Position numbers: made by a program | Source of the DNA: Podarcis pityusensis | Lineage: Eukaryota | Assembly: GCA_964106645.2 (NCBI GenBank) | Contig: OZ067044.1 | DNA length: 64,000 nt | Reading direction: 5' to 3' (one strand) | In this document: positions 2,998 to 8,900 of the stretch, one piece after another | How positions within the stretch are numbered: position 1 is the stretch's first letter | Layout of the letters: each line of letters opens with the position of its first letter

Positions 2998-5900
2998 CAA
3001 GCAAACTGATGCAGTATCTTATACAGTGAGAATAGCAGAACACTTCTCCCGCTACAGTATTTTAAGCAAAAATCAATGACTGTCCATATCACATTGATTT
3101 TGTTTATATGCATTGCTTTCAGTATACTGAAAATTCTAAAGTTGACTGTCCATAATAGGCAAAGTCAGAATCAATCTGGTGTGAAGGAAGTAGTGGACAG
3201 AGTTGACTAGGATCATGGAAACCTGTGTCCACATCCCTGCTGAGTCATAGAATTCATTGGGCAACCTTGAGCCTGCCACTGTCTCTCAACCTCAACCTAC
3301 CTCACATGGTTGTTCTGAGAAAAAAGCAATGTACATCACTGTGAGCTCCTTAGTAGAATGGAAAATTACAAGTGTAATAAAGAAATAAAGGGCTACCACA
3401 ACTGAACATTTATTAGTGTGCTAGGTGCTGCACAGAACAAAATCCACATAGGTGCTATAGGTGAAGGTATATGAATATAAGCTTGCTCTTAAATGTCACC
3501 ACATGGATAACTTATGTGCCCCTGACACATGTGAACCAGCTCACAGAATGCATCCTATGGATTTATCTTGCATGACAGATAAGTTTTGATTTTGTCTGAC
3601 CAAGATACTTTCAGATCATTTCAGTAGCTAATCCTACCTGGAATTCCATAGATAATAAGAATGGTAAACAACAACAACAACCCAGAAAGGATAAGCCAGT
3701 GAAAATGGTTAAGAATAAGAAGGGTGGAATCCACAGATTGGTGGTATCTGTGAATTGGAGAAAGTAATTCTGGACAATCTTCCCTGCAGTGTGCAACACC
3801 CCTCTAAACTTTCTACAAAGGGTTGTCAGATGTTTCAGTACATATGTAGAAGTGGAGTGGGGTGCATCATGGGGGAGGTGGAAGCACCCAAAATTGCTTC
3901 CTACCACATTCCACAGACAGATTTCATTCCACCAGCAAAGAATCACCACTGCATATCACACAACAACTTCTAGGTTCTTACTAAAGGTAAAGGTAAAGGG
4001 ACCCCTGACCATTAGGTCCAGTCGTGGCCGACTCTGGGGTTGCGGCGCTCATCTCGCTTTACTGGCCGAGGGAGCCGGCGTACAGCTTCCGGGTGTTGTG
4101 GCCAGTATGACTAAGCTGCTTCTGGCGAACCAGAGCAGCGCACGGAAACCCCGTTTATCTTCCCGCTGGAGCGGTACCTATTTATCTACTTGCACTTTGA
4201 CATGCTTTCAAACTGCTAGGTTGGCAGGAGAGGTTCTTACTAGTATGCAACAAATCCTGTCTAAGGTTAAGAGAATTTCCACTAGGCTATTTGTAGTTCT
4301 TAAGAACTACTATGTGGCTTCAAACAACAACAGAATTTTTCCAGTATCCTCTTCTTAAAAATGACAATTCAAGAAATAATTTACAAGGAACAGCACAATT
4401 AAATAATGGATGAAACTGTAATGGTATTTCTTCAAAAATGTTTACAACATCTACTTCTTAGTTATACTTTTTGCAATCCTTCAAAACTCACTATAAAATA
4501 GTTTGAGAAAATTGTATTCATTAATTTCAATGTAATAATTTATCTAACACCTACCATCCAGATTGTTCATGTTTGCAGTTGAGTCCATACTTATAAGCTC
4601 CAGAAGCAAAAAATTAATTATTTTATCATTCTAAATTATGGATTGTCATGATGCAGCTACTAATTTATTCTATGGACTTTTGCTGGAATTTTTGTAGTAG
4701 AATAAATAATATAAATGATAATTTGCTTTTATTTAATTTACAGAGTAGGTGATGAGCAATAATTATTATGAAATGCAATGCAATGCAATTACTTTCATTA
4801 CAAAAGTAAGCATGTCAGATGAATACAAATTCTGATACTGTAATCTCATGCAACTTGCTGTTCCTCAAGACTAAATTGTACAATACACTTTTTGGTATAT
4901 ATTACAGCAGGCTGTGAAATATTGGAGTTTTTTTAATAGCACATTTTCATTTTCCATGGGGAAGATTTTCTCCTTTACAGATGTTACACCAGAACATCAA
5001 AACCAAATGCTTCACTTGAGAAGCCATGATCTAAAATCCTGCTGAAGTAACCAAGCAGTACAATCTGAACCTCACTGCTTTTGCTCAGAGTACTTACTTA
5101 AATCAACAGAGATGCACTGATGTCTAAGCAACGAGATTCACTGCTCCCATCAACTGAAGAAGTGACCACAAGGAGTACAATCCTATGCATGTCTATTCAG
5201 AAGTAAATCCTACTGCGTAAGATTGCATTGCACAATGAACTGCAGCCTAAGTGTTCAAGAATGTGCAGCATTTCCAACAAATGTCTTGATGTCTGTGTAC
5301 TGCAGTGTGCAAAATATGATAGGTAGCTGTCCTGTTGCTGTGGCCCCTCTTTGGTTTTAAAAAAATGAGGACACAGTTTGATAACCAGGTTTTTAGTCAG
5401 AGATTAAACCATAGTTTTAATACAACAAGAAAATTGGTTTAAATTGTAATTTAGCAAACCTAAATGACTATTCTATTATGACATGTCTATTATGACACAA
5501 ATGAGAAAGAGGATGATGGCGAGCATGGGAAGAATGCTCATTTATTGAACCCACTGCTTATTGGCCTGAGATAATACCTGAAGAGTTAGCACATTAATGT
5601 TATCCATGTATGTGATGCTACCTGTCCTTTCTTTCTTTTTTATTTAAATAGTTTCTATTACTTTCTATTTCCCAAGAGTTTCATTTTCCCTTTTTGTTTG
5701 TTTGTTCACTCTGGATACTAAACAATGAGCACAATATTTAAACAGATTAACATGTGCAGGCAAAGAAGGCTCGTTCTTCCTGTTCTTTCTCTCTGTCTGG
5801 AAAAGGTACAGTGGTACCCCGCAAGACGAACGCCTCGCAAGACGGAAAACCCGCTAGACGAAAGGGTTTTCCGTTTTGGAGGCGCTTCGCAAGACGAATT

Positions 5901-8900
5901 TCCCTATGGGCTTGCTTCGCAAGACGACAGCCCATAGGGAAATCTCCGGGACAGCGGGGAAGCGCAGCGCGTCTTCCCCACTGTCCTCAGACCTCCTCCC
6001 GCCGCCCGGCTTCGGAACGAATCTCCGATGCCGGGCGGGGGGGGAACGCCTCCTCCCGCCGCCCGGCTTCGGAACGAATCTCCGATGCCGGGCGGGGGGG
6101 GGGGGAACGCCTCCTCCCGCCGCCCGGAATCGGAACGAATCTCCGATGCCGGGGGGGGAACGCCTCCTCCCGCCGCCCGGCATCGGAACGAATCTCCGAT
6201 GCCGGGCGGGGGGGGGAACGCCTCCTACCGCCGCCCGGCATCGGAACGAATCTCCGATGCCGGGCGGGGGGGGGACGCCTCCTCCCGCCGCCCGGCATCG
6301 GAACGAAGCTCCGATGCCGGGCGGGGGGGCGGGGACACATTCTCCCGCCGCCCAGCTTCGGATGGCTTTCCTGAAGACTTGGGGTGGGAGGAGGGTTTTC
6401 CTTCCCACCGCCAACATTCAGAATGCTGTTCTGAATGTTGGCGGTGGGGAGGAAAAACCCTCCTCCCACGCAAGCCCCGGGAACAGAGGGAAAGCGCTGC
6501 GCGCCTTCCCCTCTGTTCCCGTACCTGTCCTGAAGGCTTGCGGTGGGGAGAAAAGCCCTTCTCCGCACCGCCAGCCTGGCAAGCGGTTTCCCTAGGAACG
6601 CATTAATTGATTTTCAATGCATTCCTATGGGAAACCGTGCTTCGCAAGACGAAAAACTCGCAAGAAGAAAAAACTTGCGGAACGAATTAATTTCGTCTTG
6701 CGAGGCACCACTGTATCAGCCAATCTTTCTTTGTGTGCGTGGAAGAAATCTTGCACTAGCTGGATCCAAGCCAGAATATAGCCAATACTTTTCCAAACCA
6801 AATACTAGCTGCACCTTGAAGGGCCTCAGATGATCAATCAAGACCAACATTCCATATTCACACTTAATCTAACTTCAATGCAGTTGCTGCTGCATTTGCT
6901 CTGTCCTGCTCAGCCCTTGGCAATGTTATCCCAAGGGCATAGGAAGATTTAAGGACATCACTGGACAATTTACCACTATAAAAAGACACTAAGAAACTGT
7001 TTTATAAGAATGCATGCAATGATGAGAGATCAAATTATGTGATGCTAAGATACCTGAAAGTCACCATGGCAAATCTTCTAACCACAGCTAAAATTATCAC
7101 AGCAAGAATATAGAAAAAATCCATCACCACCTAAAGATAGAGAATTGTTGGCTATACCTTGGGGAAATGCAGAAACAGATACTGGCTATCAAGAGTTTAG
7201 CAAAGGAAATGAAGATTTATGACAGAGCCTCATTAACTGTTTCTTTCAACAGATGCATTTCTGAACTCTAGAGCAGTGTTTTTCAACCTTTTTTGGGCAA
7301 AGGCACACTTGTTTCATGAAAAAAAACACAAGGCACACCACCATTAGAAAATGTTAAAAAATTTAACTCTGTGCCTATATTGACTATATATAAAGTAATT
7401 CTCTTGAATAGGAATCAATTAAACACAAAGAAAGTATTTTATAATTACTTTATTATGAAATAGTAAGTAAACAGAAATATGAAAAATTATAAAATACTTT
7501 ATTCAGTGCGCAACCTGGGCCTGTTTGGCTGAACACAAAGCTGATATTCTGGCTGGAATCGAAGAAAGACACACACGTAGCTCTTTGTCAACAGCTCTCA
7601 GTCTCTCTCTGTATTTAGTTTTTATAGCAATCATGCTTGAAAAGCTCATCTCACACAGATATGTAGTGGAAAATGGGAGCAATGTCAAAATAGCTTTGTT
7701 TGCCAGAAGGGGGAACTCCTTGGCAGTATCCAACCAAAAACTGTCCAAAGGTAGATCAGCAAATCTTAGCTTGAAACCACGATTTTGTCTCAGTTCAGTT
7801 AGTTCCTCCTGCTCCTGTAAAGTCATGTCCTTTCCACCAACTGATGCTGAGCTATAAGGGTCCCTAACCCAGTCAAGGCATTCAGTGGAGACTGAAGAGA
7901 AATAAAATGACAACTTCTCCGGTCCTCCTGGTGACTCGAGTCGCGACGCCTTCTTCTCTCCGCTGCTGCGCACACTGTGCTCGGGCGGGAAGGAAGTCGG
8001 AAGATGATGTCCTACTGTGATAGGTCCAGGCTGGAGTCTGGACCAATCACAGCCCAGACATCAGAAAAGTGGAGCGTGTCCCCCTGAGGAGCGCCAATCG
8101 GTGCCCCTGCTGGCCGAGGGTGGGGTCAAAAACCCCACCCCCCCATACCCAGGACACAGTCCGGCGCCGCCTAGTGGGCGAAAATTTGAATTTTTTTAAA
8201 AAAAATCTTTCGAATTTTTCAATTTTTCCCACGGCACACCAGGCAACATCTCGTGGCACACCAGTGTGCCACGGAACAGTGGTTGAAAAACACTGCTCTA
8301 GAGAATGTGAATATCTGCCACACACTTAACCTCCTATTAGGGAAATGAATGGCCGGTGTAAGAGTGAATGTTTCTTAAAAAAAAAAAAAACCCACAGGAG
8401 TGTATAATAACTAGCCATCAATTCACAGGTACAGTATTATCAGGGCTGCTACTACACAATGTAATGTGAAGAATGTGAAAAATCCATGCAAAAGGCCTAA
8501 CAACATTGTTGTACCTCCAACTCTCTGGATCTGACTATAGCAATCCTACCTGGGAGCAAATACCCTTTTCTTTTCCTAACAGCCGTTAAGCAGTTTTTCA
8601 GCTGTTGGTTGCAATTTGGGCTAACCAGGGTTTTCCTTAAGGCAGGAACTGAAACCATGAGTTGAAACGGCTTTTAGATCCTAAGTTAAGGAAAACTCCA
8701 ATTAGCTTTAATTGCAGTTAACGTTTTTGTGCTGGCAAATAAATTAATTGGAGGCCTACTACTGGGGGCTATGTTTGAAAACAGTACTAAAGAAGGTGAA
8801 ATGAGGGAGTAAAAACATGCTCTTCACTGAACAGAAGGCAAGTTAGTTGCGTCTTTTGATGGGATTGTCATTAACTGTTCTCAGAGCAGCCTGTGTATTC

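What the first reader, a model, noticed from the sequence alone, without database searches (positions are those of the whole stretch)
5809..6713. Tigger-like element built as a string of hairpins, carrying an expanded hairpin/G-run minisatellite
Seen: between the TIRs nearly the whole interior is consecutive stem-loops. These are 5901-5940 (12-bp stem), 5948-5986, six ~57-bp units each with a stem of up to 15 bp (ccgcccggcatcgga-acgaatc-tccgatgccgggcgg) and a variable G run, a perfect 20-bp stem at 6404-6448, 6479-6520, 6537-6575 and 6584-6636. Variants show a polarity (cttcgg in units 1-2, aatcgg in 3, catcgg in 4-6). CpGs are intact in a CpG-poor window. Inference: a mobile cassette delivering a CpG island, a cruciform/G-quadruplex-prone VNTR and a possible small-RNA precursor. 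The modules appear to grow by hairpin-stimulated slippage during gap repair. This is the most unusual structure in the window.
Basis: partly seen in the sequence, partly recalled or inferred. Interest (0 to 1): 0.7.

Follow-up and report, generated by a model that had tools for sequence, protein, structure and literature searches.

The report
Hairpin-rich Tigger-like transposon with minisatellite
This is a real, apparently young, non-coding jumping-gene copy of the Tigger/pogo type whose interior is a chain of palindromes with a six-unit GC-rich repeat, a striking but already familiar kind of element with no function shown.

Summary
Window 5809-6713 is a 905-bp element flanked by TA on both sides. 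Its 21-bp terminal inverted repeats differ at 2 positions. It carries 8 copies of a subterminal CGCAAGACGAA-type motif. A 57-bp x 6.4 array lies at 5992-6362. In the fold, 839 of 905 bases sit in 16 local stem-loops. The DNA folding energy is -355 kcal/mol, against -194 +/- 8 for shuffles and -92 +/- 13 for 68 other tiles of the window. CpG observed/expected is 1.03, against 0.205 for the rest of the window.

I read it as a non-autonomous Tigger/pogo-like MITE. Five smaller relatives in the window share its ends, and one of them has its own internal tandem expansion. MITEs with internal tandem repeats of palindromic units, and stem-loop slippage models for them, are already in print.

The functional claims (CpG-island delivery, G-quadruplex, small-RNA precursor) are untested. 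Rfam gives only sub-threshold generic hairpin matches. The array units show no covariation above shuffles. No eukaryotic collection was available, so copy number, polymorphism and assembly support stay unchecked. Interest is low to moderate.

The parts
5807..5808 (.). TA target-site duplication, left
   Evidence: Sequence. The pattern including TA matches at both ends.
5809..5829 (+). Left terminal inverted repeat CAGTGGTACCCCGCAAGACGA
   Evidence: (I19).
5820..5928 (+). Five direct copies of the subterminal motif CGCAAGACGAA (at most 1 mismatch): 5820-5830, 5836-5846, 5852-5862 (16-bp spacing), 5888-5898 and 5918-5928. Presumed transposase-binding sites (inference).
   Evidence: 8 matches in the window, all inside the element, 0.18 expected by chance. 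(D3, D4).
5827..5889 (+). Stem-loop H0, which includes two of the subterminal motifs
   Evidence: RNA fold z -7.3.
5898..5943 (+). Stem-loop H1, a 15-bp perfect stem with a subterminal motif in its loop
   Evidence: z -6.3; z -6.4.
5949..5986 (+). Stem-loop H2, a direct paralogue of H3
   Evidence: z -5.5., D5 (79%); direct alignment 40/50 against inverted 35/56.
5992..6339 (+). Six full units of the minisatellite, each a palindrome followed by a G run. Unit lengths counted by me from the unit boundaries sent: 57, 61, 53, 58, 57 and 62 bp.
   Evidence: period 57, 6.4 copies, 90% matches, score 571. (alignment A3). (15-bp perfect stems in units 4-6).
6340..6396 (+). Degenerate seventh unit (U7). 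Its left arm is kept and its right arm has diverged.
6378..6474 (+). Long near-perfect palindrome P (about 44 bp of stem, 5-nt loop). Its arms resemble the arms of the array unit.
   Evidence: (z -13.3), (20-bp perfect core at 6404-6448; I5, I21, D2).
6478..6521 (+). Stem-loop H3, a direct paralogue of H2
   Evidence: z -5.4. (D5).
6534..6577 (+). Stem-loop H4, related to the right arm of P
   Evidence: z -4.2., D2 (75%). (41/60 direct).
6584..6637 (+). Stem-loop H5
   Evidence: z -7.1; z -7.9.
6638..6707 (+). Right-end stem-loop: an internal direct-orientation copy of the inner TIR, two more motif copies (6643-6653, 6659-6669) and the conserved GGAACGAATTAA block, pairing with the right TIR
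   Evidence: z -8.6. The same architecture occurs in the small relatives.
6693..6713 (-). Right terminal inverted repeat (2 mismatches to the left one)
6714..6715 (.). TA target-site duplication, right

Best explanation
The element is a non-autonomous Tc1/mariner-superfamily transposon (MITE-like) of the pogo/Tigger type, 905 bp long and inserted at a TA.

How it would move (inferred from established knowledge of Tc1/mariner/pogo elements, not shown here): a transposase encoded elsewhere binds the CAGTGGTACC ends and the CGCAAGACGAA subterminal repeats and moves the element by cut and paste.

The interior does not code for anything. It is built from a few palindromic modules that were duplicated: H2 and H3; the array unit, U7, P and H4. 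One module has been amplified to six near-identical 57-bp units.

The stem-loops near the two ends are mostly inverted or nested copies of the binding motif. In the array, the stems exist because a palindromic unit was copied, not because pairing was selected.

The array most likely grew and shrank by replication or repair-synthesis slippage, or by unequal exchange between units, helped by the hairpins and G runs (inferred; it fits published stem-loop models).

The intact CpGs and the high GC content in a CpG-depleted genome are most simply a sign that this copy, or its source lineage, is young (inferred). Any effect on the host as a CpG island, GC-box cluster, non-B DNA or hairpin RNA would be a side effect and is not demonstrated.
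For: Identity of the element:
- TA duplication plus 21-bp TIRs with 2 mismatches, 0.00 expected by chance.
- 8 motif copies, all inside the element, 0.18 expected.
- All six reading frames in this region are open for 125-245 codons (8 stop-to-stop stretches of at least 110 codons). By my reading their translations only echo the 57-bp repeat, as expected of GC-rich, stop-poor DNA. These stretches were not sent to Pfam.

Relatives in the window:
- Five smaller TA-flanked elements share the first 13 TIR bases with at most 1 mismatch (12 matches = 6 elements).
- They also share three 16-bp-spaced left motifs, a right end with two direct motifs, a conserved GGAACGAATTAA block, and an inverted motif plus TIR. 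For two of them, the right 49 bp align to 6665-6713 at 73%, E 4e-6.
- A published table labels this TIR type 'Tigger-like' (PMC4678618, passage).

Module paralogy: D2 61-75%, D5 79%; 40/50, 41/60.

Array hairpins are inherited by copying: 89.0% of cells are paired, but shuffles give 88.4 +/- 0.7 and 235 of 500 shuffles are as high.

Tendency to tandem expansion in the family: copy M4 has a 17-bp x 3.5 array of the subterminal motif. By my reading of alignment A2, the five copies carry about 1, 2, 2, 4.5 and 2 motif repeats.

Youth: CpG o/e 1.03 against 0.205 in the background, and against 0.66 and 0.50 in two of the small relatives.

Precedent: MITEs with central tandem repeats, ordered variants and a palindrome per repeat, and replication stem-loop models for them (PMC3879986, abstract and Discussion read).
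Against: - Only one copy of this subfamily is in the window, so mobility, copy number and repeat-number variation for this subfamily are unshown.
- No transposase gene was found. None of the 115 ORFs of at least 75 aa outside the element has a credible Pfam domain.
- At 905 bp the element is long for a MITE.
- Not everything fits passive copying. Between paralogues H2 and H3, an inserted A in the left arm is matched by an inserted T in the right arm, and a C.A mismatch becomes A-T. Palindrome P is nearly perfect although it differs from the array unit at many positions on both arms. So some palindromes were re-made or corrected after they diverged.
- CpG is uneven inside the element: o/e 0.53 for U7+P and 0.49 for H4, against 1.07 for the array and 1.27-1.6 for the ends. 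Youth alone does not explain this.
- The variable G-run lengths could partly be homopolymer sequencing error (untestable here).
Confidence: 0.72

Rival explanations
1. The hairpins are kept because they matter for the element's own spread. For example, amplification might run through single-strand fold-back intermediates at replication, as in the model for inverted-repeat elements quoted. Palindromes would then be regenerated at each cycle by snap-back synthesis or arm-to-arm correction.
For: - Arms of paralogous modules changed in concert. H2 and H3 show a compensated indel and a mismatch turned into a pair. P is near-perfect over about 44 bp despite diverging from the array unit.
- 839 of 905 bases lie in stem-loops.
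- The right-end hairpin is shared with the small relatives, with a different motif but the same pairing.
Against: - Within the array there is no covariation above shuffles. The left-arm variants of units 1-3 are left uncompensated while the right arm stays the same.
- The left parts of the two small relatives folded (M1, M2) are not hairpin-rich (z +1.6 and +1.75). A string of hairpins is therefore not needed by the wider family.
- Cut-and-paste Tc1/mariner transposition acts on double-stranded ends (established knowledge).
- The evidence comes from only two or three paralogue pairs within a single copy.
Confidence: 0.1
2. The element, or this copy, works for the host as a CpG-island-like regulatory cassette: an unmethylated GC-box cluster acting as promoter, enhancer or boundary.
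For: - 905 bp at GC 63.8% with CpG o/e 1.03. This passes the usual composition thresholds for a CpG island (thresholds recalled, not from a call).
- 13 GGGCGG/CCGCCC hexamers in the element against 6 in the other 63 kb.
Against: - A recent insertion has this composition without any function.
- No coding exon or Pfam domain was found in the 64 kb.
- No expression or methylation data were available.
- The small relatives have lost part of their CpGs (o/e 0.66 and 0.50). The family is therefore not generally protected from CpG loss.
Confidence: 0.08
3. The long palindrome, the units, or both are precursors of small RNAs (hairpin siRNA or a young miRNA), as known for other MITEs.
For: - RNA folds are very stable on both strands. 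6378-6474 gives -83.5 and -77.2 kcal/mol with z -12.8 and -13.6. A unit gives -51.6 kcal/mol with z -9.0.
- Precedent: a human miRNA family derived from a palindromic MITE (PMC1784062; search listing and start of the abstract only).
Against: - No Rfam family reaches its gathering score.
- The best sub-threshold scores are 51 bits against a cut-off of 168, and 44 against 60. They are spread over many unrelated miRNA models, and several top families match on both strands, which marks a generic hairpin.
- There is no evidence of transcription.
- Perfect stems of about 44 bp at this GC content are not typical miRNA precursors (general knowledge).
Confidence: 0.07
4. Part of the picture is technical. 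The unit number, the G-run lengths, or both are assembly or homopolymer-calling artefacts.
For: - G runs of 7-12 and near-identical 57-bp units are classic trouble spots (general knowledge).
- Unit lengths differ almost only in the G run.
Against: - Units carry ordered, distinct point variants: CTTCGG, AATCGG and CATCGG; a T-to-A change in unit 5; a loop change in unit 6. Collapse or error would not create these.
- The flanks and TA duplication are clean, and the window has no N.
Confidence: 0.05

Closest known systems
Tigger/pogo-like MITEs of the Tc1/mariner superfamily, such as the 'Tigger-like' MITE clusters tabulated for Rhodnius prolixus (PMC4678618), the TcMar-N non-autonomous families of Anolis (PMC3014272), and the five small copies in this window
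   Same: - TA duplication and a short TIR beginning CAGTGGTACC.
- Repeated subterminal motifs.
- No coding capacity and no partner transposase nearby.
- The end architecture is colinear with the five small copies in the window.
   Different: - The subterminal motif differs throughout: CGCAAGACGAA instead of GGTTA(A/C)AGAC-type.
- The element is 3-4 times longer than the small copies.
- Its interior is GC-rich and almost entirely palindromic, and it carries a 57-bp array.
- The left parts of the two small copies folded (M1, M2) are not hairpin-rich.
Tandem-repeat-containing MITEs: DTC84 of the clam Donax trunculus and the pearl / DINE-1-type elements (PMC3879986), and Xenopus MITEs with internal repeats (Hikosaka and Kawahara 2004, seen only as cited)
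   Same: - A central array of up to a handful of repeats sits between TE flanks that act as a 'cassette'.
- The repeat variants are ordered.
- Each repeat holds a palindrome, proposed as a hotspot for length change.
- Stem-loop replication models have been offered for the growth of such arrays.
   Different: - Those elements have an AA target duplication, core repeats of about 160 bp and an adjoining microsatellite, and may be Helitron-like.
- Here the duplication is TA, the ends are Tigger-like, the unit is 57 bp and the whole unit is a palindrome plus a G run.
- This is an analogy of architecture, not membership.
Palindromic MITEs that gave rise to miRNA genes (Made1 and hsa-mir-548; PMC1784062, listing and abstract start only)
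   Same: A Tc1/mariner-superfamily MITE whose sequence folds into a long hairpin when transcribed.
   Different: - There the hairpin is formed by the two TIRs of an 80-bp element, and small RNAs are documented.
- Here the hairpins are internal modules, and no RNA evidence or family match exists.
Foldback-type transposons (long inverted terminal regions built of repeats). This description is recalled, not taken from a call.
   Same: Repeat-rich, strongly self-complementary DNA between the transposon ends.
   Different: - The terminal inverted repeat here is only 21-24 bp.
- The left and right arms align poorly in inverted orientation (118 of 261 columns).
- H2 and H3 match better as direct repeats than as inverted repeats (40/50 against 35/56).

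Membership tests
Tc1/mariner superfamily, pogo/Tigger group | TA target-site duplication | tested here: met
   TA lies on both sides. The same holds for the five small relatives.
Tc1/mariner superfamily, pogo/Tigger group | Short terminal inverted repeats of the CAGT... type | tested here: met
   The TIR is 21 bp with 2 mismatches. By my comparison, 12 of its first 13 bases equal a TIR that a published table calls 'Tigger-like' (PMC4678618). The label rests on end similarity only.
Tc1/mariner superfamily, pogo/Tigger group | Mobilised by a DDE transposase with a CENP-B-like DNA-binding domain that recognises these ends | not testable with these tools
   No transposase is present in the element or the window (Pfam on 115 ORFs). 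No eukaryotic genome collection was open.
MITE | Non-coding, short, with TIRs and a target duplication | tested here: met
   The frames over the element are open but, by my reading, translate only the repeat. TIRs and TSD are shown. The length of 905 bp is at or above the usual upper size (size limit recalled); 371 bp of it is the array.
MITE | Many homogeneous copies in the genome | not testable with these tools
   The window holds one copy of this subfamily. Relatives with the other motif number 5 copies in 64 kb.
Tandem-repeat-containing MITEs (DTC84 / pearl / DINE-1 type) | Central tandem array between TE flanks, with repeat number varying among copies | tested here: inconclusive
   The array is present. 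Variation among copies could not be tested for this subfamily. The related small copies do vary in a 17-bp motif repeat.
Tandem-repeat-containing MITEs (DTC84 / pearl / DINE-1 type) | AA target duplication and an adjoining tetranucleotide microsatellite (per PMC3879986 Discussion) | tested here: not met
   The duplication is TA, and TRF finds no tetranucleotide microsatellite next to the array.
CpG island | Composition: long enough, GC-rich, CpG o/e high (thresholds recalled) | tested here: met
   905 bp, GC 63.8%, o/e 1.03.
CpG island | Unmethylated in the germline and associated with transcription starts | not testable with these tools
   No methylation or expression data were available.
Known RNA families (miRNA precursors and others in Rfam 15) | Score at or above a family's gathering threshold | tested here: not met
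   There is no gathering-level match in the element. The best sub-threshold scores are 51 against 168 bits and 44 against 60 bits.
G-quadruplex-forming minisatellite | Four G tracts of at least 3 with short loops, in each unit | tested here: inconclusive
   The canonical motif occurs in 2 of the 6 full units, at 6090-6105 and 6319-6334. At G4Hunter 1.5 or more, 6 of the window's 19 plus-strand regions lie in the element; at 2.0 or more, 1 of 5. A competing hairpin is predicted in every unit.
Foldback transposons | Long, repeat-built terminal inverted regions | tested here: not met
   The TIR is 21-24 bp. The inverted arm alignment gives 118/261, and H2/H3 match better as direct repeats.

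The most novel reading that the evidence does not exclude
The palindromes are not passive filler. In this Tigger-like lineage they would be continually re-made, by snap-back synthesis or by arm-to-arm correction during excision-gap repair or replication. Arms would then co-vary between paralogous modules, as seen for H2 and H3 and for P. Each new insertion would plant a fresh, CpG-rich, GC-box- and G-run-bearing, length-unstable hairpin array in a CpG-poor vertebrate genome. 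That would make the family a self-renewing source of CpG-island-like DNA, fragile non-B DNA and hairpin RNA.
Probability: 0.1. Interest if true: 0.5.

Novelty: new member of a known kind. Interest (0 to 1): 0.25.

Why it matters
If the reading is right, this is one more example of a DNA transposon that carries and probably breeds a minisatellite. Such elements are one accepted route by which tandem repeats, and later satellites, arise and spread.

Three things make the copy a convenient test case. It looks young, because its CpGs are intact. Each of its units is a strong palindrome plus a G run. Relatives with and without expansions lie in the same 64 kb.

With the host genome, long reads and methylation calls, one could measure directly how fast such arrays change per transposition or per generation, and whether insertion of a CpG-rich cassette changes local chromatin.

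It does not open a new category. The architecture and the slippage idea are both already in print.

Tried and rejected
1. Bacterial or vector origin of the GC-rich interior. Exact scans of the prokaryotic genome collection found 0 loci for the TIR pattern and 0 for a 22-base unit core. blastn of the whole element found no match in 72,556 plasmid records or 20,395 E. coli records. Rejected.

2. Known RNA family. Rejected.

3. Coding capacity and neighbours. Pfam on 7 ORFs and on 115 ORFs of at least 75 aa outside the element gave only two sub-cut-off chance hits: DUF3915 at 18.1 bits against 26.9, and a coronavirus NSP4 model at 16.8 against 25. My recollection that ORF 7503-8060 (-) looks like a hAT transposase C-terminus was not confirmed.

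4. Foldback reading. Rejected.

5. Selection for pairing in the array. No signal: 235 of 500 shuffles are as high.

6. The idea that the diverged modules (U7, P, H4) are CpG-decayed copies of the array unit. Of 16 aligned CpG sites in the G-arms, 6 are kept, 1 is TG/CA and 9 are other. Of 18 in the C-arms, 9 are kept, 6 are TG/CA and 3 are other. Non-CpG positions differ at 23/85 and 18/71. The alignments are too uncertain, so the result is inconclusive. Only the lower regional CpG o/e (0.53 and 0.49) stands.

7. Descent of the unit's loop from the subterminal GGAACGAATTAA block. This rests on a shared 9-mer with E about 4. It is a lead only.

8. A 23-bp match of element positions 563-585 to window 17741-17763 (91%, E 0.004). 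The element side lies in the G-rich right arm of U7. I took it for chance; the target site was not read.

9. Literature string searches. For this element's own end strings, 14 papers held only the 11-mer, all on unrelated subjects by title, and none held the longer strings. For the small relatives' strings, 1 paper, the Rhodnius table.

10. Supplementary files of PMC3014272, which may list consensus sequences of lizard TcMar-N families and so bear on whether this family is already named.

11. Genome-wide copies, unit counts per copy, the empty site, long reads, methylation and small RNAs. No eukaryotic collection or read data were available, so all of these stay unchecked. Repbase and Dfam could not be consulted.

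Full report
**What the window is.** The window is 64,000 bases with no N. GC is 38-49% in 2-kb steps. CpG observed/expected is 0.205 outside the element, which is the signature of a CpG-methylating animal genome.

I did not take the window for human, for these reasons:
- The head motif of the primate Alu repeat has 0 matches at up to 3 mismatches.
- The window holds six TA-flanked copies of a DNA transposon family with almost intact ends.
- It holds a tRNA-headed SINE-like repeat that I recall as reptile-like. That is recall only and comes from no call.

The host species was not determined. No ORF of at least 75 aa outside the element has a credible Pfam domain (115 ORFs), so the surroundings look non-coding.

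**Check of the observation.**
- The element runs from 5809 to 6713, 905 bp, with TA on both sides.
- The 21-base end occurs only at 5809-5829 (+) and 6693-6713 (-, 2 mismatches), with 0.00 matches expected.
- TRF reports 5992-6362 as period 57, 6.4 copies, 90% matches, score 571. This is by far the strongest tandem repeat in the window.
- Each listed hairpin folds far better than its dinucleotide shuffles, with z from -4.2 to -13.3. The exception is unit 3, which lost part of its right arm (z -1.8).
- Units 4-6 have perfect 15-bp stems, and 6404-6448 is a perfect 20-bp stem.

- 5901-5940 extends to a 15-bp stem at 5898-5943.
- 6404-6448 is the core of a near-perfect palindrome within 6378-6474 with a stem of about 44 bp.
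- There are two more stem-loops, at 5827-5889 and at the right end, 6638-6707.

In the minimum-energy DNA fold, 839 of 905 bases lie inside 16 consecutive local stem-loop domains. The whole-element energy is -355.3 kcal/mol. Shuffles give -193.8 +/- 7.6, z -21. The 68 other 905-bp tiles give -91.6 +/- 13.4, with the best at -141.0. A linear GC correction still leaves z near -20, but that is an extrapolation, because no tile exceeds 49% GC.

The variant polarity is as stated (units 1-2, 3, 4-6). The degenerate seventh unit shares the variant of units 1-2. The CpG contrast is real: 95 CpGs with o/e 1.03 at 63.8% GC, against 0.205 at 40.3% GC.

**What it is.** The ends identify it. Besides the TIRs there are eight copies of CGCAAGACGAA (at most 1 mismatch), all inside the element, with 0.18 expected.
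- Three lie at 16-bp spacing next to the left TIR, and two more lie further in on the left.
- Two lie in direct orientation near the right end.
- One, inverted, lies within the right TIR.

A blastn of the element against the rest of the window picked up the right ends of two other elements. A pattern search then found five in all: 27392-27605, 30821-31051, 41536-41780, 46358-46628 and 53065-53308. Each is TA-flanked and about 210-270 bp long.

Aligned in a common orientation, these five are 77% identical per column. They share the architecture of the element under study:
- the same first bases, CAGTGGTACC;
- three 16-bp-spaced left motifs;
- on the right, two direct motifs, a conserved GGAACGAATTAA block, then the inverted motif and TIR.

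For two of them (M1, M2) the right 49 bp align to 6665-6713 at 73%, E 4e-6. The motif itself differs throughout, GGTTA(A/C)AGAC-type in the small family against CGCAAGACGAA here. I read that as a sister subfamily answering to a different but related transposase (inference).

A published table lists a bug MITE with TSD+TIR TACAGTGGTACCTCGGTTTTCGAA as 'Tigger-like' (PMC4678618, one passage read). A study of a lizard genome describes 17 non-autonomous TA-flanked Tc1/mariner families, some with Tigger-like ends and no autonomous partner found (PMC3014272, section 9 and passages read). No transposase could be examined.

**Anatomy of the interior.** The interior is modular.
- H2 (5949-5986) and H3 (6478-6521) are direct paralogues. 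With flanks they match 40/50 in direct orientation against 35/56 inverted (D5, 29).
- The right arm of the long palindrome P and the H4 region are direct paralogues, 41/60 (D2, 75%). Both resemble the G-arm of the array unit (61%, D2).
- U7 is a decayed array unit (37/62).

So the right third of the element looks like older, diverged relatives of the unit that was later amplified six-fold.

The array is better described as alternating C-rich and G-rich arms. Each G-arm can pair with the C-arm on either side (I4, I11, I14, I15, I23, I24).

The right-end stem-loop is an internal direct-orientation copy of the TIR's inner part facing the TIR. The same holds in the two small relatives I folded (z -6.7 and -4.5), whose left parts are not hairpin-rich at all (z +1.6 and +1.75). 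The terminal hairpin is therefore probably a family trait. The string of internal hairpins is peculiar to this element among those examined.

**How it most likely works.**
- Shown: the ends, the motif repeats, the relatives, the array, the palindromes, and the CpG contrast.
- Inferred from established knowledge of Tc1/mariner/pogo elements: cut-and-paste mobilisation in trans by a transposase that binds the TIR and subterminal repeats.
- Inferred: the array grew by slippage or unequal exchange between palindromic units during replication or during repair synthesis after excision.

There is indirect support in the window for the last point. One small relative, M4, carries a 17-bp x 3.5 expansion of the subterminal motif with 97% matches. 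By my reading of alignment A2, the five copies have about 1, 2, 2, 4.5 and 2 repeats of it.

The literature already offers this idea. The Discussion of the DTC84 paper (read in full) describes MITEs with central arrays, ordered variants and a palindrome in each repeat as a likely hotspot. It cites two models in which inverted repeats or stem-loops cause duplication during replication. I saw those two cited papers only as citations.

**Evidence against pairing being selected in the array.** Across the seven units, 89.0% of cells are paired. Shuffles give 88.4 +/- 0.7, and 235 of 500 are as high. The left-arm variants of units 1-3 create mismatches while the right arm stays constant. The array's hairpins are therefore there by descent.

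**What does not fit passive copying.**
- Between H2 and H3, an extra A in the left arm is matched by an extra T in the right arm, and a C.A mismatch in H2 is an A-T pair in H3.
- P is almost perfect over about 44 bp, although both its arms differ from the array unit at many positions.
- One stem position runs T-A in U7, T.T in U1-2 and A-T in U4-6.

These few cases suggest that some palindromes were created or corrected after divergence, by inverted duplication, snap-back synthesis or arm-to-arm correction. The sample is tiny and comes from a single copy, so I keep this as the rival and novel reading at about 10%.

CpG is also uneven: o/e is 0.53 in U7+P and 0.49 in H4, against 1.07 in the array and 1.27-1.6 at the ends. 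My attempt to show that the diverged modules are CpG-decayed array units was inconclusive.

**The functional claims.**
- CpG island: the composition criteria are met (thresholds recalled), and there are 13 GC-box hexamers against 6 in the other 63 kb. A fresh insertion would look the same, and two of the older small relatives have already lost CpGs (o/e 0.66 and 0.50).
- G-quadruplex: the canonical motif occurs in 2 of 6 full units. At G4Hunter 1.5 or more, 6 of the window's 19 plus-strand regions fall in the element; at 2.0 or more, 1 of 5. This is enriched but not extreme, and each G run has a complementary C-arm beside it.
- Small RNA: the folds are very stable on both strands. However, no Rfam family reaches threshold, and the 139 weak matches are generic hairpin matches, with several top families matching on both strands.

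None of these claims can be settled from sequence.

**Comparison with what is known, and novelty.** By its ends the element is a member of the Tigger/pogo-like MITEs. Its transposase and copy number were not testable. By architecture it is an analogue of the tandem-repeat-containing MITEs. It is not a member of the DTC84/pearl/DINE-1 group, because the TA rather than AA duplication and the missing microsatellite fail that test.

I rate it a new member of a known kind. It may already be named in a repeat library.

**What stayed unchecked.** Genome-wide copies, unit counts, the empty site, long-read support, methylation and small RNAs are therefore all open.

**Verdict.** The structure is striking, but it is explained by known biology. 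Interest is 0.25.

Noticed in passing
window 27392-27605 (+), 30821-31051 (+), 41536-41780 (-), 46358-46628 (-), 53065-53308 (-): Five TA-flanked Tigger-like MITEs of about 210-270 bp, with TIR TACAGTGGTACCTCG and 77% mean column identity. That is five copies in 64 kb, so the family is probably very abundant in this genome.
   Followed up: yes
window 46399-46457: A 17-bp x 3.5 tandem repeat (97% matches) inside the small MITE copy M4. It is an expansion of the family's subterminal motif; by my reading of the alignment the other copies have 1 or 2 repeats.
   Followed up: partly
window 27534-27603 and 30961-31049: In the two small MITE copies folded, the right end is itself a hairpin: an internal direct-orientation copy of the TIR faces the real TIR (z -6.7 and -4.5). 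The element under study has the same arrangement with a different motif.
   Followed up: partly
window about 10160-10290 (-): A tRNA-like head (Rfam tRNA, 33.7 bits, 10225-10283) followed by non-tRNA sequence, probably a tRNA-derived SINE. My impression that it is reptile-like is recall only.
   Followed up: no
window 7503-8060 (-): A 185-codon open frame 0.8 kb from the element with no Pfam match. I suspected a hAT transposase C-terminus from memory, and this was not confirmed.
   Followed up: partly
window 13988-14392 (+) and 54404-54814 (+): Two open frames with closely similar translations. They point to two copies of an unnamed interspersed repeat.
   Followed up: no
window 11527-11561: An isolated perfect 15-bp palindrome with a 5-nt loop, the only other stem of that length outside simple repeats.
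   Followed up: no
window 2962-2995, 50887-50951, 61283-61341, 63645-63707: An (AT)n tract, (AGAA)16, (TCTT)15 and a 30-bp x 2.1 perfect tandem duplication.
   Followed up: no
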